A stretch of DNA of 32,000 nt from Candidatus Saccharimonadota bacterium (GCA_963677765.1 OY782392.1:750001-782000); one strand, 5' to 3'. Shown: positions 1 through 32,000, counted from the stretch's first letter. Numbers and translations are program-made. Notes: generated from the letters alone by a model not told the origin.

Positions 1-432
1 TCAAATCTAGATATGATAGATTTAGCTTTTAAAAATTGAGCTAGTGACTATATAATCAAACCATTTAGATTTGAAGAATTAAAGCTTAGAGTTTTAAATT
101 GGTATAAAAATAGAAAATGTAGAGTTGATTATTATTCTAATTGAAATATTTATTACAATTGATTACTATATTATATTGATAATAATGATTTTTTATATTT
201 TTGAGAAAAGATTTTATTAACAAAAACTACTAAAAGGCTGTTATATATTTTCTTATATAATAAAGAGAAGTTAATTTCAAATGATTTTTTATTAGAAAAA
301 TTATATTGATATTGAATTTATGACAAAAATCTTAGGATTATAATTTTAAGACTGAAGAAAAGTTTATTATCATTTTGATTAGGAAACTCTATCGAAAATA
401 TAAGATGAGAATGATATATTTTTAAAATATAA
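1..432 (+). CDS. OmpR/PhoB-family response regulator, C-terminal part (5' end lies outside the window)
   Basis: Frame 1 is open from base 1 to TAA 430-432 with TGA=Gly. The receiver-domain end reads GASDYIIKPFRFEELKLRV. A winged-helix output follows: LTKTTKRLLYIFLYNKEKLISNDFLLEKLYGY...IENIRGEGYIFK. Confidence 0.75.
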
Positions 433-477
433 TAAAATATGATATAATATTTATATATTAAATAAAATTAATAAAAA

Positions 478-1029
478 ATGTTAGAAAAAGAAATAAAAAT
501 ATTAGATATAGATAAAAGGTCTGTGGAAGAAAAATTATTAAAACTAGGTGCAATTAAGACTTTTGACTGATTTATTCATGATATTTACTATGATTTTCCA
601 GATTGAGATAATATGAAAATGGAAGAAAATAAGAGGTTATTTAGAGTGAGAAAAAAATGAGAAGAACATCTATATACAATAAAAAGAAAAAGAAATAAAA
701 AAAGTGAAGGTTGAGAAAAATGAGTAAAAGTAGCAGATGAATGAGAAAATACTATAACTGATGTTGAAAGTTTCACAAAGGTTTTAGAAAAATATTGAAT
801 GACTAAAACAAGAGAAAAAATGAAGCATAGAACATCTTATAAATTATGAAATATAGAATTTGATATTGATGATTATGAATGAATTCCTACTCTTATAGAA
901 ATTGAGGCTCCAAGTTCTTCAGATATAAAAGAATATATATCATTATTAAATCTAGATAATCATATACAAAAGAAGTTTTGATCGAGAAAATTATATGAAT
1001 ATTATTGATTAGAATATAAATATTTATAA
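478..1029 (+). CDS. CYTH-domain protein (triphosphate tunnel metalloenzyme, CyaB/ThTPase-like), 183 aa
   Basis: ATG 478 to TAA 1027-1029. The N-terminal ExExK signature is present (MLEKEIKILDID). Later strands rich in alternating charged residues (FRVRKKGEEHLYTIKRK, IEFDIDDYEGIPTLIEIE) are typical of CYTH barrels. Confidence 0.7.
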
Positions 1030-1059
1030 AAAACAACTAATTAAAATAGTTGTTTTTTT
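1029..1059 (+). terminator. Intrinsic terminator after the CYTH gene
   Basis: Stem aaaaacaacta (1029-1039) pairs with tagttgttttt (1047-1057) and is followed by T residues. Confidence 0.6.
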
Positions 1060-1070
1060 ATTTATAAATA

Positions 1071-1097
1071 AAAAAGTATCTTATTAAGATACTTTTT
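1071..1097 (-). terminator. Intrinsic terminator of the VTC-like gene (perfect 12-bp stem)
   Basis: aaaaagtatctt (1071-1082) pairs with aagatacttttt (1086-1097) around a 3-nt loop. The stop codon of the minus-strand gene (1084-1086) sits at the loop. Confidence 0.6.
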
Positions 1098-1947
1098 TTG
1101 TTATTTCATTTGTTATATGTTTTGTTATATCATTTAGAGAACCTTTTCTTTTTTTATTAGATATTGTTTCCATTCTAATTTTTTTGATTTGTTCCATTGT
1201 TTCTTTAAATGTATCAAATTTTTCTGCTAATCATGAATAAACAACTCATAGAGAATATTTGCTACAACTTTTTGCCTTATCTATATTGTGTGTTTTCATT
1301 ATTTCACAAGCTTGACAGTCTTCTTTTAATGATTTACTTTCTATTATAACAAGATTTTTTAAATCAACTATCTTTGCTCATTTTTTTCTTAAGTCAGTTG
1401 CTTTTATATCAAAATCAATAGTTAATCTTTCTTCTCAGTTTTTACTAACCATTGTTATTCTTTTATAGTTTGTCTTTATAGAAGGAGATATTTCAGGTGC
1501 TTTTTCACCAGAATATACACTTTGCCATACTCAATCAAAGAACCTTTTTTTACCTCTAGTCATGAAACCATGTTCTTCAGAAGGAAATTGATATCTATAT
1601 TTACTTGTTATTCCATCGTTTTTTTGTTTATATTCAAAAAATGCTAAATTTGAATCTACATAATATCTTGTTCTAACTTTTGTTCTAGATTTTAATTTAT
1701 TTTGATGTTGATTATAAAATAGATAATCTTTTGTATCCATATATACATTATCATATTCAAAAACTTTTTTTCAGGCAATTTCTAATACTTGAAATTGATC
1801 TTTTAAATCACTAAGTATATCTGAAAATTGTTTTGAATTAAGTAGAAATTTTCTATCAATTCTTTTTAAAAAACTTGCTGTAGAATTTAATTCAGTTAAA
1901 GTTATTGGTTTAAAACTTTTTAGTTTATCGTTAAATTTAGGAGCCAT
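1084..1947 (-). CDS. VTC-domain protein (polyphosphate-polymerase-like TTM fold), 287 aa
   Basis: ATG at 1947, TAA at 1086-1084, and no in-frame TAA/TAG on checking. The sequence FKPITLTELNSTASFLKRIDRKFLL...VLEIAGKKVFEYDNVYMDTKDYLFYNQHQNKLKSRTKVRTRYY...FFEYKQK matches the bacterial VTC-domain pattern as I remember it. Confidence 0.65.
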
Positions 1948-1996
1948 ATTACTTCAGGGGGGTTAGTTTTTATTTTTGTTTTTGTATTACTTATTT

Positions 1997-2025
1997 ATTT
2001 TATCATATAAGATTTTTTAGGTCAA
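1997..2025 (-). promoter_or_regulatory. Candidate sigma70-type promoter for the VTC-like gene
   Basis: On the minus strand the pattern is TTGACC (2025-2020), a 17-nt spacer, then TAAAAT (2002-1997), about 45 nt upstream of ATG 1947. Confidence 0.35.
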
Positions 2026-2031
2026 AAAATT

Positions 2032-3351
2032 TTATATAAAATTTATTAAAATTATGTAAGTTAATCATGATATTATTCAAGCTATTGGTAGTGTAACTAT
2101 CCAAGATAGTATAATACCATTCATCATTCATTTTTTTATAACAACTTTATCTTTTCATTCAACATTTTTTTGATGCTGTCTATATAATCATATTCAAAAT
2201 ATTGCTCATAAGGCTATTTGAGTAGAGGAAACAGGTAGTCATAATTGAGAAGCAACCAATACTGTAGCAGCTGCAGATAATGCTACACAAAATGCTCTTA
2301 TTTGATCTAATTTAGTTATTTCACTTCATACAGTTTTTATAAGTCTTGCTCCAAAAGTAGCTAATCATATTGATAAACCTAATGCTCAAAATAGCATTAT
2401 CCAGAAAGGAACTCAAGCTGAATTTACTAATTCTATTCATCCATTTTTAATTGTTTCATTTATTGCTGCAAGTGGTCATATAGCATTAGCTACATCATTT
2501 GAACCATGTGCAAAACTTAATAATGCTACTGCAAATATCAGTGGAATATTAAAAAGTTTATTAATAAATTTTTTCTTATCTTTGAAAAACCATTCATTGT
2601 GTCTTTTATATAGAATTACTAATATCATATATGTTACAACTCATATAATTATTCATATAAAAGTTGATGTTGTAGGGTTTATAACTCAAGCTAGTAATTC
2701 ATTAGATTTTAATAAAGGTTTTAAACCTTTCATCATAAGATATATTGAAAATATAGTCATCATTAATGCTACATAAACAGGTACCCAATGTTTAGCCGCT
2801 TCTCATCTATTTTTTCTATCTAATATTGTTTTTCTAACAGAGATATATAGTAAAACTGATATTACTCATCATATTATTAATGATATTATCCAGCTTGCAA
2901 CTATTTCTCATATTTTATCCCAATATACAATTGATACTCATTCAGCTACCAATCATGCTCATATTAAACCTCATATAATTGAGTTTGTTGTAGATATAGG
3001 GGCTCTAAAAAAAGTTGCAATATTTAACCATAATGCTGCTCCTAACAATGTCGAAAGCATTATAAATATAAATTCTCTAGAGTCATTTATCATGCTTTGA
3101 TCTATTATTCATCATTTGATAGTATCTACTACATCTCATCAAGCTATTAATGCTCATCAAGCTTCAAAAATAGCAGCTATAAAAATTGCGGCTCATAGTG
3201 TTATTGCTTTTGATCAAACGGCAGGTCACATATTGTTTGCTACATCATTTGCTCATAAGTTCATTGCCATATATATAGCAAAAACAGTAGCTATTAATAA
3301 GTATAAATTATTATTTCATCATTGAAAAAAATATACATATGAAACTCACAT
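2032..3351 (-). CDS. pit: PiT-family inorganic phosphate transporter, 439 aa
   Basis: ATG 3351, TAA 2034-2032, frame checked open. Both PHO4 signatures are present (NLGANDVANNMGPAVGSKAIT and FAHGSNDVANAIGPLAA), with many TGA-encoded Gly in transmembrane segments. Confidence 0.9.
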
Positions 3352-3483
3352 TATTATGGAAAATCATAGGAATAAATATTTTAATGAATGAATATATTCA
3401 TCTTTTACATTAATAGTAATTTTCATTTTTTTCTTATTATTTTTAAATTTCTATTAAATATTACCATTTTAAAAAATAAAACA

Positions 3484-3520: not shown

Positions 3521-3531
3521 CATTTATTGAT

Positions 3532-4596
3532 TTATTTATTTAATTCATTTTTTATTATATCTGTTGCTTTGTAGAAATTATCTAAATTTAATCAAGCTTT
3601 TCTTAAAGTTTTATATTTATTTAATTTTTCATAAATATTTTTTGTTAATTCTTCATTTTGGTCTAATAAATCACTTCAGTATTTTTGTCTAAAGTACATA
3701 GCATTATAATATTGATGATCTCAAGCACTTCATTCTAAAGGTATTATTATAGAATGTATTCAAAAAACATTTAATTCCCATAGGGAAGTAGCTCATCACC
3801 TAGTTATTGCAATATCAGTTTGTTTTAGAATAAGTCACAAGTCCTTTTGATTTATAAAATCATATGTTCTTACATTAGGAAATTTTCTAAAGCTATCTTT
3901 GAAATGAAGATTTTTCTCTCATAGTATTATTTTGAATTCAATATCTTTTATATTAGGTAGTATATCTAGTAATGATTCAAATATTATTGTAGATCATTGA
4001 GATCATCAAGTTACTAAAACATTTAATCTTCAGTTTTCAGATATTTCAAAATCTTTTATATTTTCAAGTAAATCTTTATTTAGTATTTGTCATGAGCAAA
4101 TATTTTTTTCTGGTTTATCTAATGTTTCAGCATTTGGAAAAGAATAAAAAACTTTTGTAGCTATTTTTCATATTATTTTATTTGCTAATCATTGTACTAT
4201 ATCAGATTCATGTATATATATTTTTTTTCTTAGTAAAAATGCAGCTATACAAAGTGGTAAACTAACAAATCATCATTTACTAAATACTATATCAACTTTA
4301 TATCTCAATATAAAATATATTCAGAAAAATATTCATGTTAAATTTTTTAATGGTTCATAAAAATTTCTTAAATCAAAATATCTTCTTATTTTTCAAGATG
4401 GTATATCTAAAAAATCTATATTATTTTCTAATGCTATATCATATTCTAATCATTCTTCTTGTCATGCCCAAAAAAACTTATATTTATTATCATCTTTTAA
4501 GCTATTATATATTGATAATAAAGGGAATATATGACCTCAAGTTCCTCATCAAGTTAATGCTATTACTTTTTTATCTTTTGTTTTTAAATTTGTCAT
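3532..4596 (-). CDS. murG: MurG, undecaprenyl-PP-MurNAc-pentapeptide N-acetylglucosamine transferase, 354 aa
   Basis: ATG 4596, TAA 3534-3532, frame checked open. Motifs seen: LTGGGTGGHIFP, VTGGSQGS, ITRGGATSLWE, DHQYYNA. Confidence 0.9.
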
Positions 4597-4724: not shown

Positions 4725-6629
4725 ATGAGATTAGAAAGATATAAACAAATTAAAAAAATCTGATTGAATAGAAATGATTTAAAGTTTCAATTATCTGAAA
4801 TTAATGAATCAATTATTGAAGAAATTGGTAATGATATTATAAAAGAGTATCTAACAAAAAAGATAGTAGATTGAAGATTGAGAATGGATCAACTAGATGA
4901 TATAAAATTCAAAATGCTAAAACTAGAATGATTGGATTATCAAAGAGATATTTCTATATATAATTTATTGTATTCAATTTTATTGAATAATATATTGTTA
5001 CCTGATTATTCTAATTCTTGGAACAAAGAAGATATTTTTTCTGAGTTTGATAATATATTAGAAAGAGTTAATTCTAGAACTTCAAGAATTCTTGAATCTA
5101 TGAATAATAGAGGTTTTTTCAATATAAGTGTATGAAATCATGAAGAAATAGAAAATGAAATTGAATGATTTAATAATAATTGATGATATATTCAATATAG
5201 AAATTTTTCTCTTAATTGAGCTTTTTGATTTGTACATATATGAGAAAATACAGAGAATGATTGAAAATATACTTTTAGAATACCTATTAGAATTCCTGGT
5301 TGAATAAAGCAAAAGGCATGAGAAAAATCAACTTTAGATAATAATGTTGATATAGAATTGATTGAAAGTATTTTATCTAAATATTTTAATTGAAAAAATT
5401 GAACTAGAAATATTGCAAAATCTTCAAAAGATTTTAAGTGATTAGAGGATTATTATATATCTATAAAAAGATCTTTAAATAAAGATTTTTCATATTGATC
5501 TGATGATTCTTCTACTTATTTTGTTATTGATATATTAAATAAAAAACTAAAAAATATAAGTGATCCTATATATGAAACGAAAGATATTATAAATTTTTTA
5601 GAATGATTTTTTAAGATAGCTAATGTTTTAATAAATGATATAGCAAATAAATCTTGAATACATCATAAGAAAAAATATTTAAATTTTTCTACTATGTATG
5701 TTTACAATGAAGAAAAATCTAATTGAAATGATTTAACTTTAGATAAATCTACTTTAGATAAATTTTCTAAATTACTAGTTGAAATGAAGAGGCAGGTATT
5801 ATTAGATGATATCTGATGACAAGAAGAAGCAAAAGAAGAAATTTCAAAAATAATCAAATCTATACAACATGAAGAGATAATGAGGTCATGGTGAGCAAAA
5901 ACTACTACTTGAATTATATTTGAATGACCTCCTTGAACTTGAAAAACTTTATTAGCACAAGCTATTGCTACAGAAGTAAATGCACAAGTTTATAATATAA
6001 AACTTACAGATATAGCTTCTAGTGCTTATATAAATGAATGATCTAATAATTTAAAAGAACTTTTTAAATTTTTGAGATATCAAGCATCTAAAACAAATAA
6101 AAAAATAATTGTTATACTAGATGAGCTTGATGCATTATTTAAAAAAAGGGATTCTGATAAAAATTCTTGAGAAGATACAAAGATTGTTAATACATTTTTA
6201 ACAGAAATGTCATGATTTGATGATATAGATAATATAATATTTATATGAACAACTAATCATGTTGACGAGTTAGATAGTGCTGTTATTAGGTCTTGAAGAA
6301 TGTCAACAAAAGTAAAAGTTTGAATGCCGGATTTTAATTCTAGAAAGCAAATATTTGATATACATATTAATAAATCAAAATCTAAATCTAAAAAATCTGA
6401 AGAAGCTTTTAATTGATTAGATATAGATGAACTATCAAAAAAATCAGACTGACTTTCTTGAGCAGATATAGAAGAAGTTATAAGACAAGTTATAGAAAAA
6501 AAAGCTTTAGAAGAGGTTGATAAATGAGAATTTTCTAAAATTAAACAAGAAGATATTTTATTTTTTATAAAAAAGATAAAGTCCGAATCAAAATCTAATA
6601 AATTACCTACTATTGGTTTTATTCAATAA
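4725..6629 (+). CDS. Classic-clade AAA+ ATPase with an uncharacterised N-terminal region of about 390 aa, 634 aa
   Basis: ATG 4725 to TAA 6627-6629. Walker A is IIFEGPPGTGKTLLA, Walker B is IIVILDELD, and the second region of homology is IGTTNHVDELDSAVIRSGRMSTKVKVGMPD. There is no transmembrane segment and no HEXXH protease domain. Confidence 0.85.
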
Positions 6630-6663: not shown

Positions 6664-7251
6664 TTATAATTTTATATATCACATTATTTTTATAATAAAT
6701 AAATTAAGTTTATTTATTAATTTACATTTTATTAAAACTTTGAAGCTTATAAAAGCTGATATTGTTCATACAATAATTCAAACTATTATATCTAGTGGCC
6801 AATGAACTCAGACAACTATTCTAGATATATTCATTAATATAGCTGGAATTAGAAAAAATAGAGCTGTTTTATTATGTTTTGCTAAAAAAAGTGATACTAA
6901 AAATGCAATACTAACTGTAGCATGATCAGAAGGGAAACTAGCATCAGGTATATGGTCTAAAACTAATTTTCAAACTCATTCTAATACAGTTTCTGGTCTA
7001 TCAACTGAAACAAATGCTTTTATAATGTAACTTATAATTATTCATATAACTGCAGAATAAAATATAAATAAAAGATTTTGTTTTTTTTCTATATTTTTTT
7101 CTTTATAAGTATAATATAACCACATAGTAACTAAAAATAAAGGAAGGAAGAAAATAGGAGCATCAGCAAAAATTACAGCTAATTTTTCTACTATGTTATT
7201 TTCCATAAACGAATTTAAAAATATTAATAAATTTTGGTTTATTTCTTGCAT
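6664..7251 (-). CDS. PAP2-superfamily phosphatase (undecaprenyl-diphosphatase-like), 195 aa
   Basis: ATG 7251 (an in-frame TTG lies at 7254), TAA 6666-6664, frame checked open. The protein is membrane-embedded and carries the PAP2 motifs FPSDHA and SRIVVGVHWPLD. Confidence 0.8.
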
Positions 7252-7386: not shown

Positions 7387-8673
7387 ATGACACAATTTTC
7401 TCCAGTTAATTGAACTTTTGATATTTTTCCTGATTCACATAGATATTTAACTTTTTTAAAAAAAGTATATCGTCATGAATTTAGAAAAAATGGTTTTAGA
7501 AGAATTTCAACTTCTATTTTAGAAAAAAAAGATCTTATTAAAAAATCTTGATTTTTAAATGACTGTATAATAAATGGAGAAGATTTTGATTTGAATCAAA
7601 CACCATCATTATGAATATTTAGAGCTTATCTAAATAATGAGGTATATAATGAAATTCAACCAGTTTATTATTATTATATGCAACAAATTCATAAAAAACA
7701 AAATGATTGAAATATTAAATCTATAGAAACTATTTGAGCTGATATAATAGGTGAAAATGATCCAATTTTAGATGCTATACAAATATATTTAAATTATACT
7801 GTTCTAAAAAAAATTTGATTAGATTGAAAATTTGAGATAAAAGTTAACTCTATTTGAGTTGAAAAAGAAAAAATTAAATATAGAGAAGAGTTAGTTACAT
7901 TTTATGATAATAAAAGACATTTATTAACTCAAGAATCTCAAGATTTAATAGATATTGATCCTATGATGATTTTGAATTCTCAAGAAGAAGATGAAAAAAT
8001 ATTAAATGAAAGTGTTCCTCCAATGTCTCCTAAGTTTTTAAAAAAAGATAGTAAGGCTCATTATATAAAATTTAAAGAATATTTAGATTTACTTGAAATT
8101 CCTTATGTTGAAGATAAAACTTTAGTATGAGACTCATTAGTACAAACTAATACTGTATGGCAAATAAATAATTTAGATTGAGAAATTATAACAAAATGAT
8201 ATAGATATAATTCTATAGCTAAAAATCTATGAGAATCAAAAGAAGTACCAGCAGCAGGTTTTTATACTGATACTATGCTTTTGATAAAAATGTTAATGGA
8301 TGAATGAATAAAAATAAAAAATAAAGATAAAATAGATTTATTTTTTGTTCAATTATGAGATGAAGCTAAATCAGTTGTTTTACCATTATCTATAAAAGCA
8401 AGAGAAGCATGAATAAATACTGTTGTTTCTCTGTGAACTCCTTCTATGAAAGAGCAAATATTAAAAGCTCAAAGGTCAAATGCTAGATATATTGTTATGG
8501 TTGGTATAATGGAAGCTAGAAATGGTATTTTTCAAGTTAGAAATGAAGTTGAATGAACTCAAGCTGAAGTTAAAAAAGAAGAACTAATAGATTATATTAT
8601 ATCAAAGATATGAGAAGAAAATTTAGATTTTTACTCTCCTGAAAGAGATTTAATAATAAAAAAAGAAGACTAA
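7387..8673 (+). CDS. hisS: Histidyl-tRNA synthetase-like protein (class II core plus HGTP anticodon-binding domain), 428 aa, with catalytic motifs divergent
   Basis: ATG 7387 to TAA 8671-8673, frame checked open. Seen: N-terminal NGTFDIFP, KVNSIG, PAAGF, and a C-terminal anticodon-binding-like IDLFFVQLGDEA...ARYIVMVGIMEARNGIFQVRN. See the finding on missing motifs. Confidence 0.7.
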
Positions 8674-8690
8674 TTTAGTCTTCTTTTTTA
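8659..8690. terminator. Bidirectional terminator shared by hisS-like (+) and the Cys-rich exoprotein gene (-)
   Basis: aagaagacta (8663-8672) pairs with tagtcttctt (8676-8685). The hisS stop lies inside the stem-loop, and the opposing stop is at 8688-8690. Confidence 0.6.
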
Positions 8691-10886: not shown

Positions 10887-10957
10887 AATATAAGGGGATT
10901 AAATAAATAAGTATTTTATATTTTATCTATTTATTTTAAAAAAAAAGAAAAACTTCT

Positions 10958-11560: not shown

Positions 11561-11570
11561 GTTTTATATT

Positions 11571-21408: not shown

Positions 21409-21437
21409 AAAAGACAGATTATAATCTGTCTTTTTTA
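21407..21437. terminator. Bidirectional terminator between the hydrolase gene (+) and the 186-aa gene (-)
   Basis: aaaagacagatt (21409-21420) pairs with aatctgtctttt (21424-21435) around the loop ata. The minus-strand stop at 21435-21437 lies at its edge. Confidence 0.65.
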
Positions 21438-21995
21438 TATGTTTTTAAAACTATCTATTTTTGCTTCTCATTTTACTATTAGATATATGTGATATGGAGA
21501 TTGAATTATTCATTTTCATATATTATATAGTCCATCTAATCAAGCGTAAATACTATTAGCACTTCATAAAGCAAATCATAATATATGCTCATGAATCAAT
21601 TTTGGATTTTTAGCTGTATTTATAAGTTTTTCTGGTAAAAATTTTTCAATTTCATTTGTTATATTATTTATATCAAGATTCTTTTCTATATCATCTTTTA
21701 GTGACATTATTTCAATATGAACTTTATTTTCAATTGATTCTTGAGCTCATTTTAATATTAAGAAAAGTTTTTCTTGTTCTTGATTTTTTAGTTTATCGAA
21801 AAAATCATTTCATGATTTATTTAATTCTATTTTTAATTGTTCTAATCATCTAGAAGTATCAAATTTTATCAACTCTTTTGTTTTTGATTTTTCAATTCAA
21901 TAATTTTTAGATATTTCATTAGATAGTTCTTCTAACAAAATATCTTTATTGTCTTTTTTTTGTTCAAAAGTAGAATTATTTTTTTCAATACTCAT
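21435..21995 (-). CDS. Hypothetical protein, 186 aa
   Basis: ATG 21995, 10 nt after the upstream TPR gene's stop, to TAA 21437-21435; frame checked open. The N-terminal two thirds are helical and charged, and the C-terminal part is glycine-rich (GFALGSANSIYAGLDGLYNIGKGII). I recognise no family. Confidence 0.55.
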
Positions 21996-22005: not shown

Positions 22006-23523
22006 TTATTTTTTATTATTCATCTTTTTTAGAGTTTGATCAATCCAATATTCTATAGTTTCTTGATATTCTCTATTTTTATCTAAATCTAATGATTTTT
22101 TAAAACTTTTCAATGCATCTTCATAATTTTCTTTTTTTGATTGATAAATTCAGTTTACCATTTGTATCATTGGGTTTTCAGGATTTATCTCTATTCATTT
22201 TTTTATATTTGTTTCAATTATTCTTTCTTGTATTGTACTTATTTCTTCTTTTTGTAACATTATCCATGCATGGTATCAGTAAAAAATTTCTGATTCTTTA
22301 AATTTCGTTTTTGCTTTTTCACTTATTATGGCTGCATTATCAAGGTCTCCATTTATTATATGATAATAAACTGCTAGGTGAAAATCTCTTATATTTAGTT
22401 TATCTGATTCTAATTCTACTAGCTCTCTAAATGTTTTTAGCATTTTTTCTCTATCATCTATTTCAAAATATATAAAAATTAATCTTCTTTTTATATCTTC
22501 TATATCACTATATCATATATTTATAGCTTTACTAAAATGTATAACACTAAGTACATATTCATTTAATTTTTCATAAACTCTTCATGTAAAATAACTCATT
22601 TCTGGGTCTTTTGTTTCAATTTTATTATATTCTATCAAAAAATCTCTAGCTTCTATATAGTTTCAAAGTTCGTAAGCGCTTTTTGCTGCTATTTTTAATA
22701 CAGGTTTATATCATTTGTTTTCATTTAAAATATTTTTTGATGTTTCTAAAGCTACTTTATAAAATCAATTTTGATAATAAGCTCAGCTTATTAAAGCTGC
22801 TTTATAAACTAAATCATCAATTTGAAAATTCTCATAGTTAACAAAAGCATTATTTATTGTTTCTAAATTTTCATTTAATTCAATTTTTGTAGTATTATCT
22901 TCATTATTGTTATCTTCTTCTATTTTTTGGAAAAAATCTTGAAATTTTTGTCTACAAAGTGAAAAATCTTGAGTACAAGTTATAGAGTTTTTATAATAAA
23001 AGTTATCTTGTTCACTAAAATTAAAGCTATCAATTTCATTATTTATATCTCTTATACTTCATGTATTTGTTATATCTACAGAGTTTATATAACTATAAAG
23101 TGCAATTTTTTTATCTATTTGAGGGTAGTCTTTTATATTTGAATAAAACTCATATGCTCTAGAATAGTTTCATAATTTATAATATATATCTCATATTTTT
23201 TTATTTACTTCCTTATCTCAAGGAACATTTCTATATACTTGTAAATATTGTGTAAGAGCAGTAGTATATTCTTTATTTGAGAAATATAAATCTCATCTTG
23301 TTATTAAACCTTTTAATTCAATTTTTTTTCTTAATTCTTCTAGTCTTTTATTTGCTTCTTTTGAATCATTTTTATTGTTTTCTTCTTCTAATTCTTTTTC
23401 TATATTATCTAAATATCAGTCACTATACTCTATAATTCATTCATTTGTTTGAGTATTATTACAGCTATTTAATAAAAAAGATAGAATTATAAAAATAACA
23501 ATACTAAAAATTTTTTTATTCAT
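22006..23523 (-). CDS. TPR-repeat lipoprotein, 505 aa
   Basis: ATG 23523, TAA 22008-22006, frame checked open. The lipobox is MNKKIFSIVIFIILSFLLNSC. There are repeated TPR-like units (GDLYFSNKEYTTALTQYLQVY, GDIYYKLGNYSRAYEFY, AKSAYELGNYIEARDFL, NGIYQSKKENYEDALKSFKKSLDLD). Confidence 0.7.
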
Positions 23524-23663: not shown

Positions 23664-25151
23664 GTGTATAAAAAAGTAGCTTCAAATACTATATCCCAAA
23701 TATTTTCAAAAGTAGTAACAGCAATTATTGCTATATTTTTGATTAGTATATTAACAAATTATTTATCTTTATGAATGTATGGTCTTTATACCAAGATTTA
23801 TAATTATATTTGAATATTTGTTTTTTTAGCTGATTTATGACTTTATGCTATTTCTATTAGAGAAATATCGAATAATAAAAAAGACTCTGCAAAAATTGTT
23901 TGAAATGTCATGACATTGAGATTTATTTTATGAATTTTTATACTATTTATTTCAGTAGCTATAGCTTTTTTTATTCCATGATATAATTCTTTATTGGCTA
24001 TTCTTGCTATACTTATAGCTTCTATATTTACTATATTACAACTCATTAACTCTTCAATATTAGCTTTAATGCAAGCTAATATGAAAGTAGAATTTTCAGC
24101 TATTAGTCTTATATTTTGAAAAATTATAAATTTATTATTAATAGCTTCAATTGCTTACTTTTTTTATCCCAAAGAACTAATTGATAATTATTTTGATCCT
24201 TTTTTATATATAATGTTTGCTTGAGTTGTTAGTGTTTGAATTAATACATTACTTAATTATATATATGCTAGAAAAATTGTTAAATTTTGATTCGCTTTTG
24301 ATTGGTGATATATTAAGCATTTATTTAAAATTTCTTTACCTTATGGTATAGCTTTATTTTTATCAGTAGTTTATTTTAAGGTAGATGTTATATTGTTATC
24401 TATATTGGAATGACCAGATTTGTGAGATAAAAGTATAGCTTTGTATAGTTTACCTATGAAAATAGTAGAAGTTATAATGGTTTTATGATGATTTTATATG
24501 ACTTCTATCTTACCTAGTTTAGCAAAATCATTTAAAGATAATTCAACTGATAAATTAAAAGAAATATTAGATATTTCATTCAAAGTTTTATTCTGATTTG
24601 CATCAATTATATTTGTTTTGGGTATATTATTTAGAGATTACTTAGTTTTAATAATAGCAAATAAAGATTATTTAATAACTGATCATTTATATAATTCTAG
24701 TGATGCTTTTATTATAGTGATGTGAGTTGTTTTATTTTATTTTATATCTTTAGTATTTATCTATAGTCTAGTTGCTTCAGAAAATCAAAATAAATTATTA
24801 AAGATAAATATAATAATAACAATATTTAATATAATTTGAAATATTATATTGATACCAAAATATAGTTTTATATGAGCATGAATAACTACCTTATTATCAC
24901 AAATATTTTTATTTATATTAGGGTTTTATTATACTAAAAAAATAATTTCTTTTAGACTTCCTTATTTGTTTATATTAAAAACTACAATATTTTCTTCTAT
25001 TATTTTATTATTATGATTTATTGTCTTAAATAATTATAATGTAAGTCTTTATTTTGATTTTTTTGTGTATTGATTTTGATTTTTTATATTATTTTTCTTA
25101 TACTTCTTGTTTACATTTAGATGACTTATTAAAAATAATTTGCATAAATAA
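23664..25151 (+). CDS. MOP-superfamily oligosaccharide/polysaccharide flippase (Wzx-like), 495 aa
   Basis: GTG 23664 is the first possible start after an in-frame TAA at 23658; the stop is TAA 25149-25151. The protein is polytopic. Its start, YKKVASNTISQIFSKVVTAIIAIFLISILTNYLSLGMYGLY, is typical of Polysacc_synt-type flippases. Confidence 0.75.
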
Positions 25152-25201: not shown

Positions 25202-27334
25202 ATGGAAGAGGTTAGTTTTCTCACACAAACTTTATCAGTTTTGAGTTTATTAGTTATATGTTCTTTTTCTTATATTATCAGTAAAAAAATCAATTTCCCA
25301 TACACTGTTTTATTAGTTCTTGTATGAATAATACTTGTGCCTATTTCAAAAATAGGTATTTTTTCTTTTATTGATGATTTTAGATTAACTCCTGAATTGT
25401 TATTTTTTGTATTTTTACCTGTTTTATTATTTGAGGCAGCATATAATATAAACTATAGGCAGCTTATAACCAATTGGAAGTCAATAACTTGATTAGCAGT
25501 ATTTTGATTATTAATATCTACATTATTGGTATCAAGTTCATTATATTTTATTTTTCCATTTATATGACTTGAAATACCATTTCTAGTATGTTTATTATTT
25601 TGAGCTCTTATATCGGCTACAGATCCGGTTGCAGTTTTATCTATTTTTAAATCTCTTTGAGCCCCTAGAAGATTGACAATTCTTTTTGAAGGGGAAAGTT
25701 TATTTAATGATTGAACAGCTGTTGCATTATTTTTTGTTATATTATGACTTATATTAGAGTGAGGTGATATAACATGAATGACATATTTAGAATGAACATT
25801 GAGCTTTTTATCAATGGTTGTCTTATGAATAATATTCGGTTGATTTATGTGAGTATTATTTAGTAAAGTAATTTGATATATAAAAAACAATGAAGAAGTT
25901 GAAATCGTTTTAACTATGCTTTTGGCTCATATTACTTTTATATTGGCTGAACTAGTTACTCATTTTTTCCCGATGATTCCTATATCTTCTGTTATAGCAA
26001 CTGTAATTGCTTCTTTGATTATATGAAATTATTGAAGATATAAAATTACTCCAAGAGTAGAAATTCATATGCAAAAATTTTGGGAATTTTTTGCTTTTGT
26101 ATCTAATTCAATTGTTTTTATATTGATGTGATTAATCCTTTCAAATATAGATGTTGATTTATCTCTTTTTGTTTTACCTGTAATTATATCAATACTTGTT
26201 GTTATGACAGCTAGAGTTATATCTGTTTATATACCAATATGAATAATTAATTGATTCAAAATGGAGGAAAAAATACCTCATTCTTGGATGGTTTTATTGT
26301 CTTGGTGAAGTCTTAGATGAGCTATAGCTTTAGTAATGGTGCTTTTAATACCATGAGCTTGAGATCCTTGATATGAAAAAATGTTAGCTTTTCAAGAAAT
26401 GGTATCTTGGAATTACAGTTTTTCTATAAAAGATTTTATTCTAGTTCTTACTATATGAAGTATAATGTTTACTCTTTTTATAAAAGCGCCAACTATACCA
26501 TATATAATGAGAATGTATAAGGTTGATAAGCTTCATAGGTTAGAAGAGTTTGAATATGAAGAATGAAAAATATTAGCTAATCTTAGGATATTACAAAAAC
26601 TTAATACATCTTTTAAAAAAGCTTATTTAACTCAGGTTGAATTTGATGAATTACAATGAAAATATAGTGAAAAATTAAATAAAGCTGTTGAAAATATGAA
26701 AAATATATTAAATAGAAAATGAGTAGATTCATATTCATTAACAAAAAGAGCTTTATCATTACATGCTTTATGAATAGAAAAACAATATTTAAAAGAGTTA
26801 TATTTTTATAATGAAATAGATGAAAAAAACTTTAAATATATATTAAGAAAAATAGAAAAACAAACTGAAAGACTTGAAAAATCAAATGAACAATTGAGAA
26901 GTATATCAAAAATGGAAAATGATTATGATATCTTTATTAGATTTGTTTTAAATATGTATAAAAGAACTTCTACAGATTTAGATTCATACATAAGAAATAG
27001 AACAAGAATGATAATTACAAGAAAAGTTATAAAAGAACTTAGAGTTTTATCTGAAACAGAGCTATGATTTGATAAAAAAATGTTTGATGAGATAATTGAT
27101 TTATATGCATGATTCAATAAACAAGCAGATGAAAAAAGAATAAAAATATTTGCTTCACATAAAGCAACTATAAATGCTATTGAATCTAGATTGATAAATA
27201 AATCATTATTAAAGTTAGAAGAAAAAACTATAAAAGATTTATATAATAAAGAAATAATAACTCCAAAATTATATATAAAATTTATGGAAGAAATAGAAAC
27301 AGAAATGTATAGTGATGTTAAAAAATTTAGCTAA
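25202..27334 (+). CDS. nhaP: CPA1-family Na+/H+ antiporter (NhaP-type) with a long cytoplasmic C-terminal domain, 710 aa
   Basis: ATG 25202 to TAA 27332-27334. The C-terminal third was checked codon by codon. Motifs seen: LFGALISATDPVAVLSIF, FEGESLFNDGTAVALF, LSWGSLRGAIALV. Confidence 0.9.
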
Positions 27335-27428: not shown

Positions 27429-28115
27429 ATGAAAATAGATAATCTTACATTATCTTTTAGAAATAAAGTTATTCTAAAAGATATAGATATAGAGATAAAA
27501 ACATGAGAATTTGTTTTTATTATATGACATTCAGGTAGTTGAAAGACATCTCTTATTAGGTCTTTGATATGAGATTTTGTTCCTGAAAGGTGAGATATAA
27601 TTCTTGATAGTAATCTTGCGCTATATAAATGAATGACAAAAGAAACTATACTTTCATATAGAAGAGATATTTGAGTTATATTTCAAGATTATAAATTACT
27701 AGAATCAAAAAAAGTTTATGAAAATGTAGCTTTTGCTATGGAAGTTTGTTGATATAGTGATTCTTTGATTAGAAAAAAAGTTCCTGAAGCTTTGGAAAAA
27801 GTAGGTCTTTTAATTAAAAAAGATAAGTTTGTATTTGAGTTAAGTTGATGAGAAAAACAAAGAGTAGCAATTGCTAGAGCTTTGGTTCATGATCCAAAAA
27901 TAATTATTTGAGATGAGCCAACATGAAACCTCGATCCTGAAACAGCAAAAGAAATAATGGATATATTTCTTGATTTAAATGCTGAATGAAAAACTGTTAT
28001 AATGGCTACACATGATTCAAATATAGTAAATAATATGAAAAAGAGAGTTATTACTTTTCATGATAGAAAAGTAATAAGTGATAATGAGAAATGAAATTAT
28101 AATTTAGCTATATAA
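27429..28115 (+). CDS. ftsE: FtsE-like ABC ATPase, 228 aa
   Basis: ATG 27429 to TAA 28113-28115. Walker A is GHSGSGKTS (27523-27549, two of its three Gly are TGA). The signature is LSGGEKQRVAIARAL, Walker B is IIIGDEPTGNLD and the H-loop is ATHD. Confidence 0.85.
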
Positions 28116-28116: not shown

Positions 28117-28150
28117 AAAATAAACCAACTTATACTGGTTTATTTTTTTT
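28117..28150. terminator. Terminator shared by the convergent ftsE and nth genes
   Basis: aataaacca (28119-28127) pairs with tggtttatt (28136-28144), followed by a T-run. The nth stop (28130-28132) lies in the loop. Confidence 0.6.
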
Positions 28151-28768
28151 GTAATATTTACATTTATCACTAAAAGGGCATGTTTCACATTTTGGTTTTC
28201 TAGCTATACAATGATATCTTCAAAATAGTACCAATGTATTGTGTAACATAGAGTGATTGTCTTTTGTAAATCAAGAACTTATTTTTTTGTCTGTTTCTAG
28301 AGGAGTTTTAGTATTTACTAATCATAGCCTATTTAAAACCCTATGTACATGTGTATCTACTCATATATATGGAGCATCTTCTATTACAGCTAAAAAAACT
28401 TTTGCTGTTTTAATTCATACTCATGGTAGTTTTACTAATTCTTCTATAGTTTTAGGAACATTTGAATCATATTCTTCATAAAGAATTCTAGAAGTTTCTT
28501 TTATGTTTTTTGCCTTATTGTTAAAAAATGATATAGAATTTATAAATTCTTTGATATAGTCTAAATCCATATTAACTCAATCAATAGGTTGTTTTAAAAA
28601 GTTAAAAAAATTCCTATTTACTATATTTACTTGTTTATCTGTTGCTTGAGCGGACATAAGTATTGCAATTAACAATTGAAACTCATTTGTATAGTATAAT
28701 TCTGTTTTTGCATCAGGGAACATTTCGTTTAATTTTTTTGCGAATTCTGGTATATCTTTTTTTAGCAT
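28130..28768 (-). CDS. nth: Endonuclease III (Nth), 212 aa
   Basis: ATG 28768, TAA 28132-28130, frame checked open. The HhH-GPD motif reads LVKLPGVGIKTAKV...VDTHVHRVLNRLG. The 4Fe-4S motif is C-x6-C-x2-C-x5-C (CIARKPKCETCPFSDKC). Confidence 0.9.
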
Positions 28769-28835: not shown

Positions 28836-29606
28836 ATGTTTTATAAAGAATGATTTTTCTTAGATAAGGAATTGTGAAATAATGCTTTTTCCTTTGATAT
28901 AAGAAAAAATAAAAAACTATATATACCAAGTATAATTGATATAGATATAAATGATCTTGATAAAATAGAAATACAAGATGATAAATCAAAAATAGCATTT
29001 GAAGATTTTGATTTTGATGATAATTTATCAACAAATTATGGTCTTAAAAATTTTTATAGAATAAAAGTTAAATGAAAAGAAATTATATTATTTGATAATC
29101 ATAATCATGCTTTTTATTTCTGGTATGAGGCAAGAAATAAATGATTAATTTGAGATAATAACCTTTTATTTCATATAGATGAACATGCTGATACTAGAGA
29201 TAATAATAAATATATATCTAAAGAAGATTCATCGGATTTATCAAAAGTTTTTGAGTTTACTAATTATGTTTTAAATGTAGGGGATTATATTATTCCTGCA
29301 GAAAAAGAATGAATTATATGAAAAACTATTCAGATTAGAAATACTAAAAATTTAAATGATTATGTTTCTAATTATTATTGAAAACTTTTAGATAAAAATG
29401 ATACTAGGGGAGTTATTTTAAATTTAGATTTAGATTTTTTTCAACCAGATTTAGATTTTATAGATTATGATTTGAAAAAAAAGGTAGTTCTTGATGCTTT
29501 TCATAAGGCTGATTTTGTAACTATTTGCACATCACCATTTTTTATAAATCAAAAATTAGCAATAGATGTATTTAAAGATATATTTTGAAAATTATCTAAC
29601 GATTAA
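28836..29606 (+). CDS. UPF0489-like protein (HxDxHxD metal-site motif), 256 aa
   Basis: ATG 28836 is the first start after an in-frame TAA at 28830; the stop is TAA 29604-29606. The segment ILFDNHNHAFYFWYEARNKGLI...LLFHIDEHADTRD resembles the UPF0489 (C5orf22-like) signature as I remember it. Confidence 0.55.
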
Positions 29607-29705: not shown

Positions 29706-29711
29706 AAATTA

Positions 29712-29730: not shown

Positions 29731-29758
29731 ATCTTATATAATTAATAATATGTAAATT

Positions 29759-30070
29759 ATGACATTAGTATTAAATAATGAAAATTTTGCTGAAACAATA
29801 AAAGAAGGTGTAACTTTAGTAGATTTTTGGGCTGAATGGTGTGGACCTTGTCAAATGATGTTACCAATATTAGATGAATTTTCTTCTTTAATGGAAGGAA
29901 AAATGAAAGTTGCTAAAGTAAACGTTGATGAATGTGGTGATATAGCTGGACAATATAGAGTAATGTCTATTCCTACATTAATTGTTTTCAAAGATGGTGA
30001 ACCAGTTGAACAATTAGTATGAGTACAACAAGTTGATAAATTAGAAGAAGTTTGTTCTAAATATTTATAA
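29759..30070 (+). CDS. trxA: Thioredoxin, 103 aa
   Basis: ATG 29759 to TAA 30068-30070. The active site is VDFWAEWCGPCQM, with both Trp encoded as TGG. The in-frame TGA at 30020 falls on the conserved Gly after ...PVEQLV. Confidence 0.95.
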
Positions 30071-30071
30071 T

Positions 30072-30105
30072 AAAAAAACTAGATTTTAAAAATCTAGTTT
30101 TTTTT
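30072..30105. terminator. Bidirectional terminator between trxA (+) and pilC (-)
   Basis: aaaactagatttt (30075-30087) pairs with aaaatctagtttt (30089-30101), with an A-run and a T-run flanking it. Confidence 0.65.
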
Positions 30106-31222
30106 ATATTACATTTACCATATTAAAGAAAGGTAACATTATAGCCATTATTAGTACTCATACTATAGATCATACTATTACAATTACTAGTGGTTCTATA
30201 GCTGTTTGTATATTTTTTACTATGTTATCAATTTCTTTATTATATTTTTTTCATATTTTTATAAGAAGACTATCTAGTTTTCAAGTAGATTCTCATATTT
30301 TTACTATAGAAGCTAACTCTATAGGAAATAAGAAGTTTTCTTTTCATGTATGTATTTCGTGAACTCACATAAGCTTACTAAGTTCAACTCATTTACTAAC
30401 TCTAGAATTTATTTCTTTTAAAGCTTTTTCATAATAATCATTTTCTAATGCCTTTGAACTTATTTCTAATGATTTATTAATTATAACTCAACTTTTTAAT
30501 AATATTCATAAACTATTAACAAATAATGCTAATGTTTTCTTTTTTATAAGAGGTCAAAATATAGGTATTCTTAGTATAAAATTATCCCAGAATATTTTTG
30601 TTTTTTTATTGGTTTTGAAAATTATAACTCATATTATGAAAAAAATAATTCATAAAACTATATATATTATATTTTCTTGTATAAAGGTTGATGTATCAAT
30701 TACTCATTGAGTTAATGCTGGTAAATTTACTTTTGAGTCTATATACATTTTTTGTATTTTTGGTATTACATAAACCATAAACACACCTATCATTATAATA
30801 GATAAACTTACTATAACTATAGGGTAAATAAGTGCTCAAATTATTTTTCATTTTAATTCTTGAGATTTTTCTTCTTTTTCTTTTATTGTTTCTATAGAAT
30901 CTCATAATTTTCATGTAACTTCTCCCATTTCTACAATAGAAACATCAAATACTCAAAAAGATTTATTATTTTTTGCAAATATTTCACTTAAACTATCTCA
31001 TTTATTTATATCATCTACTATTGTTTTTAATAATAATTTTAATTTTTTTTCTCTAGTTTGATACATTATTATCTTAAATGCATTTATAAGAGGTATTCAA
31101 GATTGAAGCAAATTAGATAATTGCTCCAAAAGATTAATTTTTTCTTTTGAGCTTATTTTTATGTTTGATTTATTATTAAATTTCTCTTTTATTTTTTCAA
31201 GAAATTGATTAATTTTTTGCAT
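30104..31222 (-). CDS. pilC: GspF/PilC-family type IV pilus / type II secretion platform protein, 372 aa
   Basis: ATG 31222, TAA 30106-30104, frame checked open. Two T2SSF repeats are present (LSNLLQSGIPLINAF...VEMGEVTGKLGDS and LGILLKSGVIINKSL...VKIGESTGKLDS), with C-terminal IEPLVIVIVGSIVGVLIMAIMLPFFNM. Confidence 0.85.
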
Positions 31223-31320
31223 CAATACTAAATTATAGTTAATTTATATTATTTTATCATTTTCCTTGAATTTTTTCAAAAAATAATATACTTAAAATAT
31301 AATTATTAAATATTTGATTT

Positions 31321-31740
31321 ATGTTTAAGTTTTTTAATGTTACAAAAAATAATCAATATAGAGATATAGATGAAGAAGAATATATTGATGAAGAAATAGA
31401 AAATCAAGAAGTAGGTCAAGTTGCTATTGATATATTGGAAACAAAAAATGAAATGATTTTATTATCACCAATAGCTTGAGTTGATTTAGATGATGTTGAT
31501 ATATCATATAATGATCAAATTTTAACTATATCTTGATATAGAAAAAGACCTGATATCTTCTCAAAAGATATAATTGTTAAGAATAGTGAATGTTTTTGGT
31601 GAGAATTTACCAGAAATATAATACTTCCAGAAAATCTAGATTTTGATAATATAAAAGCAAATTTAGATAATAATTTACTAGTTATAACTATACCAAAAAT
31701 TAGTTTTTCTAGTAGGCATATAAGAGTTGAAAAAATTTAA
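31321..31740 (+). CDS. Hsp20/alpha-crystallin small heat-shock protein, 139 aa
   Basis: ATG 31321 to TAA 31738-31740. The core reads VAIDILETKNEMILLSPIAGVDLDDVDISYNDQILTISGYRK...FTRNIILPENLDFDNIKANLDNNLLVITIPK. Confidence 0.85.
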
Positions 31741-31757
31741 TATTAATATAATTTACT

Positions 31758-31988
31758 GTGATATTTAAGAGGAAATGAGTTCATGCATGAGCAAGAAAAA
31801 TAGATAAAATAGTTACATGAGTTATAGTATGAACTGCAGTAGCTTCTATGGTATGATTATCAAAAACAAAAAAATGAAAAAAAATCACTCAAAAATTATG
31901 AGAAAAGGGAACATGATTATTTAAAAAGTCATATAGCTACTTTGGTAAATGCTTAGTTTGAACTATTAATTTTTTAAAGAAAAAATAA
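31758..31988 (+). CDS. Possible small YtxH-like membrane protein, 76 aa (GTG start)
   Basis: The frame is open from GTG 31758 to TAA 31986-31988 with 11 TGA=Gly codons. There is one hydrophobic segment (IVTGVIVGTAVASMVGL) followed by a K-rich tail. The start codon is uncertain and there is no strong family signature. Confidence 0.35.
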
Positions 31989-32000
31989 TATGAGAAATAA

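What the first reader, a model, noticed from the sequence alone, without database searches (positions are those of the whole stretch)
1..32000. The whole window is written in genetic code 25 (in-frame TGA = glycine)
Under the standard code no ORF exceeds 187 aa, although the window is gene-dense.

In-frame TGA falls exactly on invariant glycines of unrelated families:
- FtsE Walker A GHSGSGKT (tga cat tca ggt agt tga aag aca, 27523-27546) and its ABC signature LSGGE (agt tga tga gaa).
- MurG GGGTGGH.
- RecJ GDYDVDG and GGHKQAAG.
- AAA+ GPPGTGKT.
- Nth LPGVG.
- PiT GANDVAN..GP.
- Thioredoxin, the Gly after EQLV.
- The sortase motif LPKTG.

Trp is encoded by TGG (WAEWCGPC), which excludes UGA=Trp. 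TGA is the dominant glycine codon: in ftsE I count 14 TGA against 2 GGT, and runs such as tga tga tga (IGGGE, about 20800) occur. All 30 CDS end in TAA (29) or TAG (1).

The recoding is known for Gracilibacteria and Absconditabacteria, so it is not new biology. It is, however, the key to reading everything else here, and it shows the supplied ORF track is misleading.
Basis: partly seen in the sequence, partly recalled or inferred. Interest (0 to 1): 0.85.

Follow-up and report, generated by a model that had tools for sequence, protein, structure and literature searches.

The report
UGA read as glycine (code 25)

Summary
The observation and its interpretation are both confirmed. Under table 11 the longest ORF is 187 aa. 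With TGA read as sense, 30 CDS tile about 94% of the window; 29 end in TAA and 1 in TAG.

TGA makes up 483 of 9,873 codons, against 79 GGN and 59 TGG. TGA columns are glycine in homologues from standard-code organisms:
- 61 of 97 columns in five families with solved structures, and none Trp.
- 25 of 31 RecJ sites across 147 diverse homologues. The log-odds are +82 bits for Gly and -94 for Trp.
- Pfam scores are higher with Gly than with Trp in 13 of 14 domains.

In syntenic relatives TGA and GGN exchange freely at the same sites, but TGG never exchanges with either. The nearest named relatives are NCBI 'Candidatus Gracilibacteria bacterium'. This is translation table 25, which is already known.

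I could not test the presence of tRNA-Gly(UCA) or the loss of RF2. Neither gene lies in the window, and the 1.05-Mb parent contig could not be reached.

Side findings:
- The single CGG codon sits on a Trp (TGG) that is invariant in relatives. This fits the published prediction of CGG→Trp in low-GC BD1-5.
- Thioredoxin avoids TGA.
- Public protein collections hold these proteins mistranslated with Trp (table 4).

The parts
1..32000 (.). Whole window: 30 CDS readable only with TGA as a sense codon. GC is 21.8% and about 94% is coding.
1..432 (+). CDS 1 (5' end cut): response-regulator C-terminal domain (Trans_reg_C); 9 TGA, 1 GGN
478..1029 (+). CDS 2: CYTH domain protein; 11 TGA
1084..1947 (-). 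CDS 3: VTC domain protein; 6 TGA, 5 GGN
2032..3426 (-). CDS 4: PiT/PHO4 phosphate transporter; 39 TGA. Pfam score is 352.5 bits with Gly and 239.2 with Trp. In the T. maritima PiT structure, 20 of 35 TGA columns are Gly.
3532..4596 (-). CDS 5: MurG; 26 TGA; ggGTgGH motif at 4531-4551
4725..6629 (+). CDS 6: AAA+ ATPase; 37 TGA; Walker A gPPgTgKT at 5925-5948. In Cdc48 D2, 14 of 16 TGA columns are Gly.
6664..7251 (-). CDS 7: PAP2 phosphatase; 7 TGA, 0 GGN
7387..8673 (+). CDS 8: divergent HisRS-like protein; 18 TGA
8688..10886 (-). CDS 9: 732-aa secreted protein without a Pfam match; 49 TGA, 15 TGG
10958..11560 (-). CDS 10: LPXTG-anchored surface protein; LPKTg at 11042-11056
11571..14333 (-). 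CDS 11: 920-aa secreted protein without a Pfam match; 37 TGA
14433..14510 (-). tRNA-Arg(GCG), the only tRNA in the window. It is conserved at this position in all syntenic relatives. It is not the UGA decoder.
14627..15433 (+). CDS 12: EAL domain protein; 10 TGA. It holds the window's only CGG codon, at 15329-15331.
15329..15331 (+). The single CGG codon. It aligns to TGG (Trp) in every relative examined.
15511..17157 (+). CDS 13: RecJ; 31 TGA. Gly is the majority residue at 25 of these sites in 147 diverse homologues.
17168..17647 (+). CDS 14: RecX-like protein
17722..18966 (+). CDS 15: DUF2130 protein; 18 TGA, 0 GGN. Its first 187 codons form the longest table-11 ORF.
18979..19392 (+). CDS 16: UPF0029/Impact_N family protein
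19396..20052 (+). CDS 17: YgjP-like metallopeptidase; the only CDS that ends in TAG
20139..20771 (+). CDS 18: YggS-family PLP enzyme
20776..21408 (+). CDS 19: alpha/beta hydrolase; TGA TGA TGA (IgggE) at 20797-20811
21435..21995 (-). CDS 20: protein without a Pfam match; 10 TGA
22006..23523 (-). CDS 21: TPR-repeat protein
23775..25151 (+). CDS 22: Polysacc_synt/MatE-type membrane protein
25202..27334 (+). CDS 23: Na+/H+ exchanger; 32 TGA
27429..28115 (+). CDS 24: FtsE; 14 TGA, 2 GGN; Walker A at 27525-27548 and LSggE at 27840-27854. Gly occupies 11 of 14 TGA columns in both the S. pneumoniae and the M. tuberculosis FtsE structures.
28130..28768 (-). CDS 25: endonuclease III; LPgVg at 28415-28429
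28836..29606 (+). CDS 26: UPF0489 protein
29759..30070 (+). CDS 27: thioredoxin. Both Trp residues of WAEWCGPC are TGG. It is an outlier, with 6 GGN and 1 TGA.
30104..31222 (-). CDS 28: GspF/PilC-type platform protein; 21 TGA
31321..31740 (+). CDS 29: Hsp20
31758..31988 (+). CDS 30: 76-aa protein with 9 TGA, ending in TAA

Best explanation
The window is chromosomal DNA of a very AT-rich member of the UGA-recoded Gracilibacteria/BD1-5 lineage (GTDB class JAEDAM01, Patescibacteria/CPR). In this organism UGA is a glycine codon and only UAA and UAG stop translation (NCBI translation table 25).

Shown here: UGA is a sense codon, it means Gly, it is used interchangeably with GGN, and it has become the main glycine codon (86%).

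Inferred from published work on the clade, not shown here: a tRNA-Gly with anticodon UCA decodes UGA, release factor 2 has been lost, and AT mutation pressure then moved most GGN codons to UGA.
For: - ORF structure: the longest table-11 ORF is 187 aa. With TGA as sense, 30 CDS tile the window and all end in TAA or TAG.
- Amino-acid budget: TGA is 4.9% of codons, GGN 0.8% and TGG 0.6%. Only TGA = Gly gives normal Gly (5.7%) and Trp (0.6%) contents.
- Solved structures: 61 of 97 TGA columns are Gly and none is Trp, across PiT, FtsE, MurG, Nth and Cdc48.
- RecJ against 147 diverse homologues: pooled Gly is 73%, a 10-fold enrichment, with log-odds +81.8 bits for Gly and -94.4 for Trp.
- Pfam: Gly translation scores higher than Trp translation in 13 of 14 domains. 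With Gly, RecJ, Nth and thioredoxin pass the NCBIfam equivalog cut-offs.
- Codon exchange with syntenic relatives: TGA and GGN interchange, TGG never exchanges with either, and 214 of 302 TGA codons are conserved as TGA at 73% protein identity. The same pattern appears in 105 table-4-style translations of RecJ relatives.
- No terminal role: TGA is spread evenly along genes and never lies within 5 codons of the stop.
- Lineage: the closest named homologues are 'Candidatus Gracilibacteria bacterium'.
- Literature: proteomics in a BD1-5 bacterium confirmed UGA = Gly (PMC4032931). Codetta infers Gly for 13 of 15 Gracilibacteria and 6 of 6 Absconditabacteria (PMC8629427).
Against: Nothing in the window contradicts this explanation. 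The gaps are as follows.
- No tRNA-Gly(UCA) gene and no release-factor gene lie in these 32 kb.
- My pattern scan for a Gly-type tRNA(UCA) in reference genomes returned no Gracilibacteria hit. So the decoding machinery is taken from the literature, not seen here.
- One Pfam domain (HhH-GPD) scores 1.9 bits higher with Trp (68.0 against 69.9).
- About a third of TGA columns are not Gly in any single distant homologue. The GGN columns behave the same way, so this is expected for variable positions.
Confidence: 0.97

Rival explanations
1. UGA = tryptophan (table 4), as in Mycoplasmatales and several insect endosymbionts. Public pipelines implicitly assume this for this genome.
For: Table 4 gives the same ORF boundaries and the same coding density. 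The public protein collection stores the window's proteins, and 105 of 120 RecJ relatives, as Trp translations.
Against: - Trp occupies 0 of 97 TGA columns in solved-structure alignments.
- Trp is at most 1.4% at any RecJ TGA site, with log-odds of -94 bits.
- Pfam scores drop by 27-113 bits per domain when TGA is read as Trp.
- Trp content would be 5.5% and Gly content 0.8%.
- TGA never exchanges with TGG in relatives, but it does exchange with GGN.
Confidence: 0.01
2. UGA is still a stop or a special signal. Either the genes are pseudogenes or fragments, or UGA is read through or decoded as selenocysteine.
For: Under table 11 the window is formally a series of short ORFs.
Against: - There are 483 in-frame TGA codons in 29 genes, and these genes otherwise match full-length Pfam and NCBIfam models.
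- TGA codons are conserved or swapped for GGN across relatives.
- Frames of up to 920 codons free of TAA and TAG cannot arise by chance at 22% GC.
- TGA columns are Gly, not Cys or Sec.
- No Rfam SECIS element or other RNA element was found.
Confidence: 0.005
3. Code 25 plus a second change: CGG has been reassigned, or is being reassigned, from Arg to Trp in this organism. This extends the main explanation and does not replace it.
For: - The only CGG codon in 9,902 codons (15329-15331) aligns to TGG in all relatives, which span 56-92% identity. It lies next to the catalytic Glu of the EAL motif.
- No other CGG or CGA codon occurs in about 9,400 non-redundant aligned codons of relatives.
- Shulgina and Eddy infer CGG = Trp in two low-GC BD1-5 genomes, and leave it uninferred in the rest. 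Those genomes keep tRNA(CCG) and lack tRNA(UCG).
Against: - This rests on a single codon.
- A Trp-to-Arg missense change or a consensus error in the assembly would look identical.
- The column is Gly or Phe in the two solved EAL structures, so it is not universally constrained.
- No tRNA(CCG) lies in the window.
Confidence: 0.45

Closest known systems
NCBI translation table 25 (Candidate Division SR1 and Gracilibacteria code; Campbell et al. 2013, Rinke et al. 2013; proteomic proof in BD1-5 by Hanke et al. 2014, PMC4032931)
   Same: UGA is a sense codon and aligns with Gly. UGG stays Trp. UAA and UAG are the only stops. The genome is AT-rich, and its closest relatives are named Candidatus Gracilibacteria.
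   Different: Nothing differs in kind. This genome lies at the extreme low-GC end of the clade: 21.8%, against a published range of 0.21-0.53 (PMC8629427). UGA has replaced GGN almost completely, making up 86% of Gly codons.
NCBI translation table 4 (Mycoplasma/Spiroplasma code and several insect endosymbionts; UGA = Trp)
   Same: UGA is read as sense in an AT-rich reduced genome, and gene boundaries are identical under table 4.
   Different: The amino acid is Gly, not Trp. UGA exchanges with GGN and never with UGG.
CGA/CGG→Trp in Absconditabacteria and CGG→Trp in some low-GC BD1-5 Gracilibacteria (Codetta predictions; Shulgina and Eddy 2021, PMC8629427)
   Same: CGN codons are almost extinct here: 3 in 9,873 codons. 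AGA is the main Arg codon. A tRNA-Arg(GCG) is present. The one CGG codon sits on a conserved Trp.
   Different: There is only one CGG codon, so the meaning of CGG cannot be inferred from this window. CGA does not occur at all.

Membership tests
Genetic code 25 (UGA = Gly) organisms, GTDB class JAEDAM01 | Conserved genes contain many in-frame UGA codons, and coding density is restored when UGA is read as sense | tested here: met
   The longest table-11 ORF is 187 aa. With TGA as sense there are 30 CDS and about 94% is coding, with 483 in-frame TGA codons.
Genetic code 25 (UGA = Gly) organisms, GTDB class JAEDAM01 | UGA positions align with glycine in homologues from standard-code organisms | tested here: met
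   61 of 97 columns are Gly in solved structures. Gly is the majority at 25 of 31 RecJ sites, at +81.8 bits.
Genetic code 25 (UGA = Gly) organisms, GTDB class JAEDAM01 | UGG remains the only Trp codon and is not interchangeable with UGA | tested here: met
   Window TGG aligns to TGG 28 times, to Tyr twice, and never to TGA or GGN. The RecJ TGG site is 79% Trp in homologues.
Genetic code 25 (UGA = Gly) organisms, GTDB class JAEDAM01 | Only UAA and UAG terminate genes | tested here: met
   29 CDS end in TAA and 1 in TAG. No TGA lies within 5 codons of a stop.
Genetic code 25 (UGA = Gly) organisms, GTDB class JAEDAM01 | A tRNA with anticodon UCA and glycine identity (G1:C72, C2:G71, G3:C70, U73) | tested here: inconclusive
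   The window holds only tRNA-Arg(GCG). A pattern scan of reference genomes gave 67 hits, none from Gracilibacteria.
Genetic code 25 (UGA = Gly) organisms, GTDB class JAEDAM01 | Loss of release factor 2 (prfB) | not testable with these tools
   Absence can be shown only on the whole genome. No release-factor gene lies in the window.
Genetic code 25 (UGA = Gly) organisms, GTDB class JAEDAM01 | Phylogenetic placement within Gracilibacteria/BD1-5 or Absconditabacteria | tested here: met
   The closest RecJ and thioredoxin homologues carry NCBI names such as 'Candidatus Gracilibacteria bacterium', GN02-872 and 28_42_T64. Gene order is conserved with GCA_041694155.1. No ribosomal-protein tree was made, because the window holds no ribosomal proteins.
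Genetic code 4 (UGA = Trp) | UGA positions align with tryptophan | tested here: not met
   0 of 97 columns are Trp. RecJ log-odds for Trp are -94.4 bits. Pfam scores fall in 13 of 14 domains when TGA is read as Trp.
CGG→Trp variant of low-GC BD1-5 (Shulgina and Eddy 2021) | CGG positions align with tryptophan | tested here: inconclusive
   The one CGG codon present aligns to TGG in all relatives. One site is too few.
CGG→Trp variant of low-GC BD1-5 (Shulgina and Eddy 2021) | A tRNA(CCG) with Trp rather than Arg identity, and no tRNA(UCG) | not testable with these tools
   The window holds no such tRNA, and the rest of the genome was not available.

The most novel reading that the evidence does not exclude
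Besides UGA = Gly, this organism may read CGG as tryptophan. Its only CGG codon in about 9,900 codons replaces a TGG that is invariant across relatives, next to the catalytic Glu of an EAL phosphodiesterase. This would place the genome among the low-GC BD1-5 lineages for which Codetta predicted CGG→Trp, a code that is not in the NCBI tables. Separately, the strong avoidance of UGA in thioredoxin hints that UGA decoding is costlier or less accurate than GGN decoding.
Probability: 0.4. Interest if true: 0.35.

Novelty: already known. Interest (0 to 1): 0.15.

Why it matters
The value is practical, not conceptual.

- Any table-11 reading of this window, including the supplied ORF track, is meaningless, so every other finding in the window must be re-read under table 25.
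- The large public protein collection queried here stores this genome's proteins, and 105 of 120 RecJ relatives, as table-4 translations. Trp therefore stands at about 5% of positions where Gly belongs. This depresses profile scores by tens of bits per domain and would corrupt structure prediction and family building. The weakness is known: heuristics based on coding density cannot tell table 4 from table 25 (bioRxiv 10.64898/2026.05.24.727570).
- The genome is an extreme case. UGA makes up 86% of Gly codons and CGN codons are nearly extinct. That makes it a useful data point for codon-capture models, but it is not a new phenomenon.

Tried and rejected
1. Reaching the parent contig. The window's proteins, as table-4 translations, lie on one NCBI/ENA contig of 1,048,296 bp. 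However, the look-up of encoding contigs returned nothing for two of them and only a 3-kb Logan contig for thioredoxin. The genome could therefore not be scanned for tRNA-Gly(UCA), tRNA(CCG) or prfB.

2. Pattern scan for the decoder tRNA. I scanned reference genomes for a canonical Gly-type tRNA(UCA): GCG...U8...YUUCAA...GUUCRANNC...CGCU. The pattern was validated on four bacterial tRNA-Gly sequences with the anticodon swapped. It gave 67 hits, none from Gracilibacteria or Absconditabacteria. Either their tRNA departs from my pattern or those genomes are not searchable there.

I used the NCBI RecJ homologue P0006 instead and re-aligned the masked window protein locally.

4. Is CGG glycine? The EAL consensus is AEGVE, which raised this possibility. 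I rejected it because relatives carry TGG, not TGA or GGN, at that site.

5. Is ATA something other than Ile? ATA outnumbers ATT by 765 to 365. I rejected this for RecJ, where the ATA columns are Ile, Leu or Val, with +55.8 bits for Ile.

6. Does TGA keep a stop role at gene ends? There is no sign of this.

7. Query error. My hand-masked EAL query had two masking errors (positions 7 and 192). This affects retrieval only, not the codon comparison, which was made on DNA.

Full report
**The observation.** The window has 21.8% GC. Under table 11 the longest ORF from a start codon is 187 aa, at 17722-18285, and only three ORFs reach 120 aa. If only TAA and TAG are treated as stops, 29 ORFs of 103 to 920 codons tile the window without conflict and cover 29,706 of 32,000 nt. 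At this base composition TAA plus TAG are expected at about 7.6% of random codons. Frames of hundreds of codons free of both therefore cannot be chance. The only error is a 2-nt offset for the FtsE Walker A, which lies at 27525-27548, not 27523-27546. The count of 14 TGA to 2 GGN in ftsE is right.

In the 29 larger CDS (9,873 codons), TGA occurs 483 times (4.9%), GGN 79 times (0.8%) and TGG 59 times (0.6%). Reading TGA as Gly gives 5.7% Gly and 0.6% Trp, which are ordinary values. Reading it as Trp would give 5.5% Trp and 0.8% Gly. TGA is therefore 86% of the glycine codons. TGA codons are spread evenly along genes and never lie within five codons of the stop, so there is no trace of a residual terminator role.

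**Which amino acid: alignments to standard-code homologues.** I masked TGA as X and aligned five proteins to solved structures from standard-code organisms. The number of TGA columns that are Gly in each family:

| Protein | Gly columns / TGA columns |
|---|---|
| FtsE (S. pneumoniae and M. tuberculosis, each) | 11 / 14 |
| PiT (T. maritima) | 20 / 35 |
| MurG | 12 / 25 |
| Endonuclease III | 4 / 7 |
| Cdc48 D2 | 14 / 16 |
| Pooled, one structure per family | 61 / 97 |

In the pooled set 13 columns are Ala and none is Trp or Cys. For RecJ I obtained 150 representatives that are at most 50% identical to each other, and 35-50% identical to the query. I re-aligned the masked window protein to the 147 of them whose Trp content is normal. 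Gly is the majority residue at 25 of 31 TGA sites and 73% of pooled residues, a 10-fold enrichment. Trp never exceeds 1.4% at a site. A log-odds score over the TGA columns gives +81.8 bits for Gly, -67.9 for the next residue (Ser) and -94.4 for Trp. In the same analysis ATA scores as Ile, AGA as Arg and TGG as Trp, so no other abundant codon looks reassigned.

**Which amino acid: profile scores.** Pfam scores for Gly against Trp translations of ten proteins favour Gly in 13 of 14 domains that contain TGA:

| Domain | Bits with Gly | Bits with Trp |
|---|---|---|
| PHO4 | 352.5 | 239.2 |
| ABC_tran | 111.5 | 71.0 |
| T2SSF | 152.9 | 112.2 |
| Glyco_tran_28_C | 84.8 | 40.2 |

The exception is HhH-GPD, at 68.0 against 69.9 bits. 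With Gly, RecJ, endonuclease III and thioredoxin pass the NCBIfam equivalog cut-offs.

**Synonymy at the DNA level.** Syntenic DNA from relatives was fetched and compared codon by codon. The fullest comparison is with GCA_041694155.1: 18 orthologous genes, 6,230 aligned codons and 73% protein identity.

| Window codon (aligned sites) | Codon in the relative |
|---|---|
| TGA (302) | TGA 214, GGN 57, other 31 |
| GGN (43) | TGA 24, GGN 16, other 3 |
| TGG (30) | TGG 28, Tyr 2, never TGA or GGN |

The same picture comes from 105 RecJ relatives that the protein collection holds as table-4 translations. Window TGA sites are W (that is, TGA) in 70% and G (that is, GGN) in 20%. Window GGN sites are W in 67% and G in 33%. 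The TGG site is W in 99%. TGA and GGN thus behave as synonymous codons, and TGA and TGG do not.

**Who it is.** The closest RecJ and thioredoxin homologues that carry a name are NCBI 'Candidatus Gracilibacteria bacterium', including GN02-872 and 28_42_T64. The window's proteins, as table-4 translations, lie on a single NCBI/ENA contig of 1,048,296 bp. The gene content is that of a cellular chromosome: MurG, FtsE, RecJ, Nth, a HisRS-like protein, PiT, thioredoxin and PilC. Published work places the UGA = Gly organisms in GTDB class JAEDAM01, with orders Absconditabacterales and BD1-5. That work gives their GC range as 0.21-0.53, reports a tRNA-Gly(UCA) and loss of RF2, and confirms Gly at UGA by proteomics (PMC8629427; PMC4032931; bioRxiv 10.64898/2026.05.24.727570). 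The window matches table 25 on every feature I could test, so the finding is correct and already known.

**What could not be shown.** The only RNA gene in the window is tRNA-Arg(GCG) at 14433-14510. This is the normal CGY reader in CPR bacteria and is conserved in place in all relatives. No release-factor gene is present. The parent contig could not be fetched. A pattern scan for a canonical Gly-type tRNA(UCA) in reference genomes returned no hit from the clade. The decoding machinery is therefore inferred from the literature, not observed here.

**Side findings.**
1. The sole CGG codon (15329-15331, EAL gene) aligns to TGG in every relative from 56 to 92% identity. No other CGG or CGA occurs in the aligned relatives. 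Shulgina and Eddy's source data show that low-GC BD1-5 genomes keep tRNA(GCG) and tRNA(CCG) and lack tRNA(UCG). They infer CGG as Trp in two of those genomes and leave it uninferred in the others. One codon cannot decide between CGG = Trp and a Trp-to-Arg missense change.
2. Thioredoxin uses 6 GGN and 1 TGA, against 86% TGA overall (binomial P = 4.7e-5). In 105 relatives its Gly columns are also mostly GGN, and the CGPC glycine is GGN in 104 of 105. This suggests selection against TGA in this gene. Differences in genome GC among those relatives confound that comparison.
3. ATA is the main Ile codon: 765, against 365 ATT.
4. Table-4 mistranslation of this clade is pervasive in the public collection.

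**Verdict.** Novelty is nil: this is code 25 in a Gracilibacteria/BD1-5 genome at the extreme low-GC end of the clade. Interest is low for a specialist, but the finding is essential housekeeping for anything else reported from this window.

Noticed in passing
window 15329-15331 (EAL gene 14627-15433, codon 235): The only CGG codon in about 9,900 codons replaces a TGG (Trp) that is invariant in all relatives (VVAE-W-IENEE). This fits the Codetta-predicted CGG→Trp of some low-GC BD1-5 genomes, but a Trp-to-Arg missense change or an assembly error would look the same.
   Followed up: partly
window 29759-30070 (thioredoxin): This gene uses 6 GGN and 1 TGA for Gly, although TGA is 86% of Gly codons overall (P = 4.7e-5). 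Relatives show the same preference, and the CGPC glycine is GGN in 104 of 105. TGA seems to be avoided in this conserved, probably highly expressed gene.
   Followed up: partly
window, all CDS: ATA (765) outnumbers ATT (365) and ATC (20), so ATA is the main isoleucine codon. This is unusual for bacteria and implies an efficient ATA decoder. The RecJ columns confirm Ile.
   Followed up: partly
window 14433-14510 (-), and CGT codons at codon 29 of the gene 7387-8673 and codon 136 of recJ (15511-17157): A tRNA-Arg(GCG) with encoded CCA and a downstream terminator hairpin is kept in conserved synteny in all relatives. Yet CGY codons number only 2 in 9,902. Both CGT sites are conserved as CGT in relatives.
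   Followed up: partly
public protein collection (P0001-P0120, P0121-P0131): The window's proteins and 105 of 120 RecJ relatives are stored as table-4 translations, with Trp at every UGA. Only the NCBI-annotated entries carry Gly. The exact Gly translations of five window proteins are absent from the collection.
   Followed up: yes
L050 507-580 (-) (JBAZTY010000004.1, Patescibacteria group bacterium, GC about 44%): A 74-nt tRNA has anticodon UCA and a glycine-type acceptor stem (GCG...CGC, U73). It lies in a tRNA cluster, although the four long ORFs of that locus (390-747 codons) contain no in-frame TGA. It could belong to a higher-GC code-25 organism that rarely uses UGA, or it could be a suppressor.
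   Followed up: partly
window 478-3426: Three adjacent genes encode a CYTH (triphosphate tunnel) protein, a VTC-domain protein and a PiT phosphate transporter. This suggests a small polyphosphate or phosphate module.
   Followed up: no
window 8688-14333 (-): Two large secreted proteins (732 and 920 aa) have no Pfam match. They flank an LPKTG-anchored, Gly/Ser-rich surface protein. The 732-aa protein is rich in Trp and Cys and has repeated FSPAPP motifs.
   Followed up: no
window 7387-8673 (+): A HisRS-like protein scores only 152.8 bits against the hisS equivalog cut-off of 286.75. Its catalytic-domain match is also below the Pfam threshold, so it is a very divergent synthetase or paralogue.
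   Followed up: no
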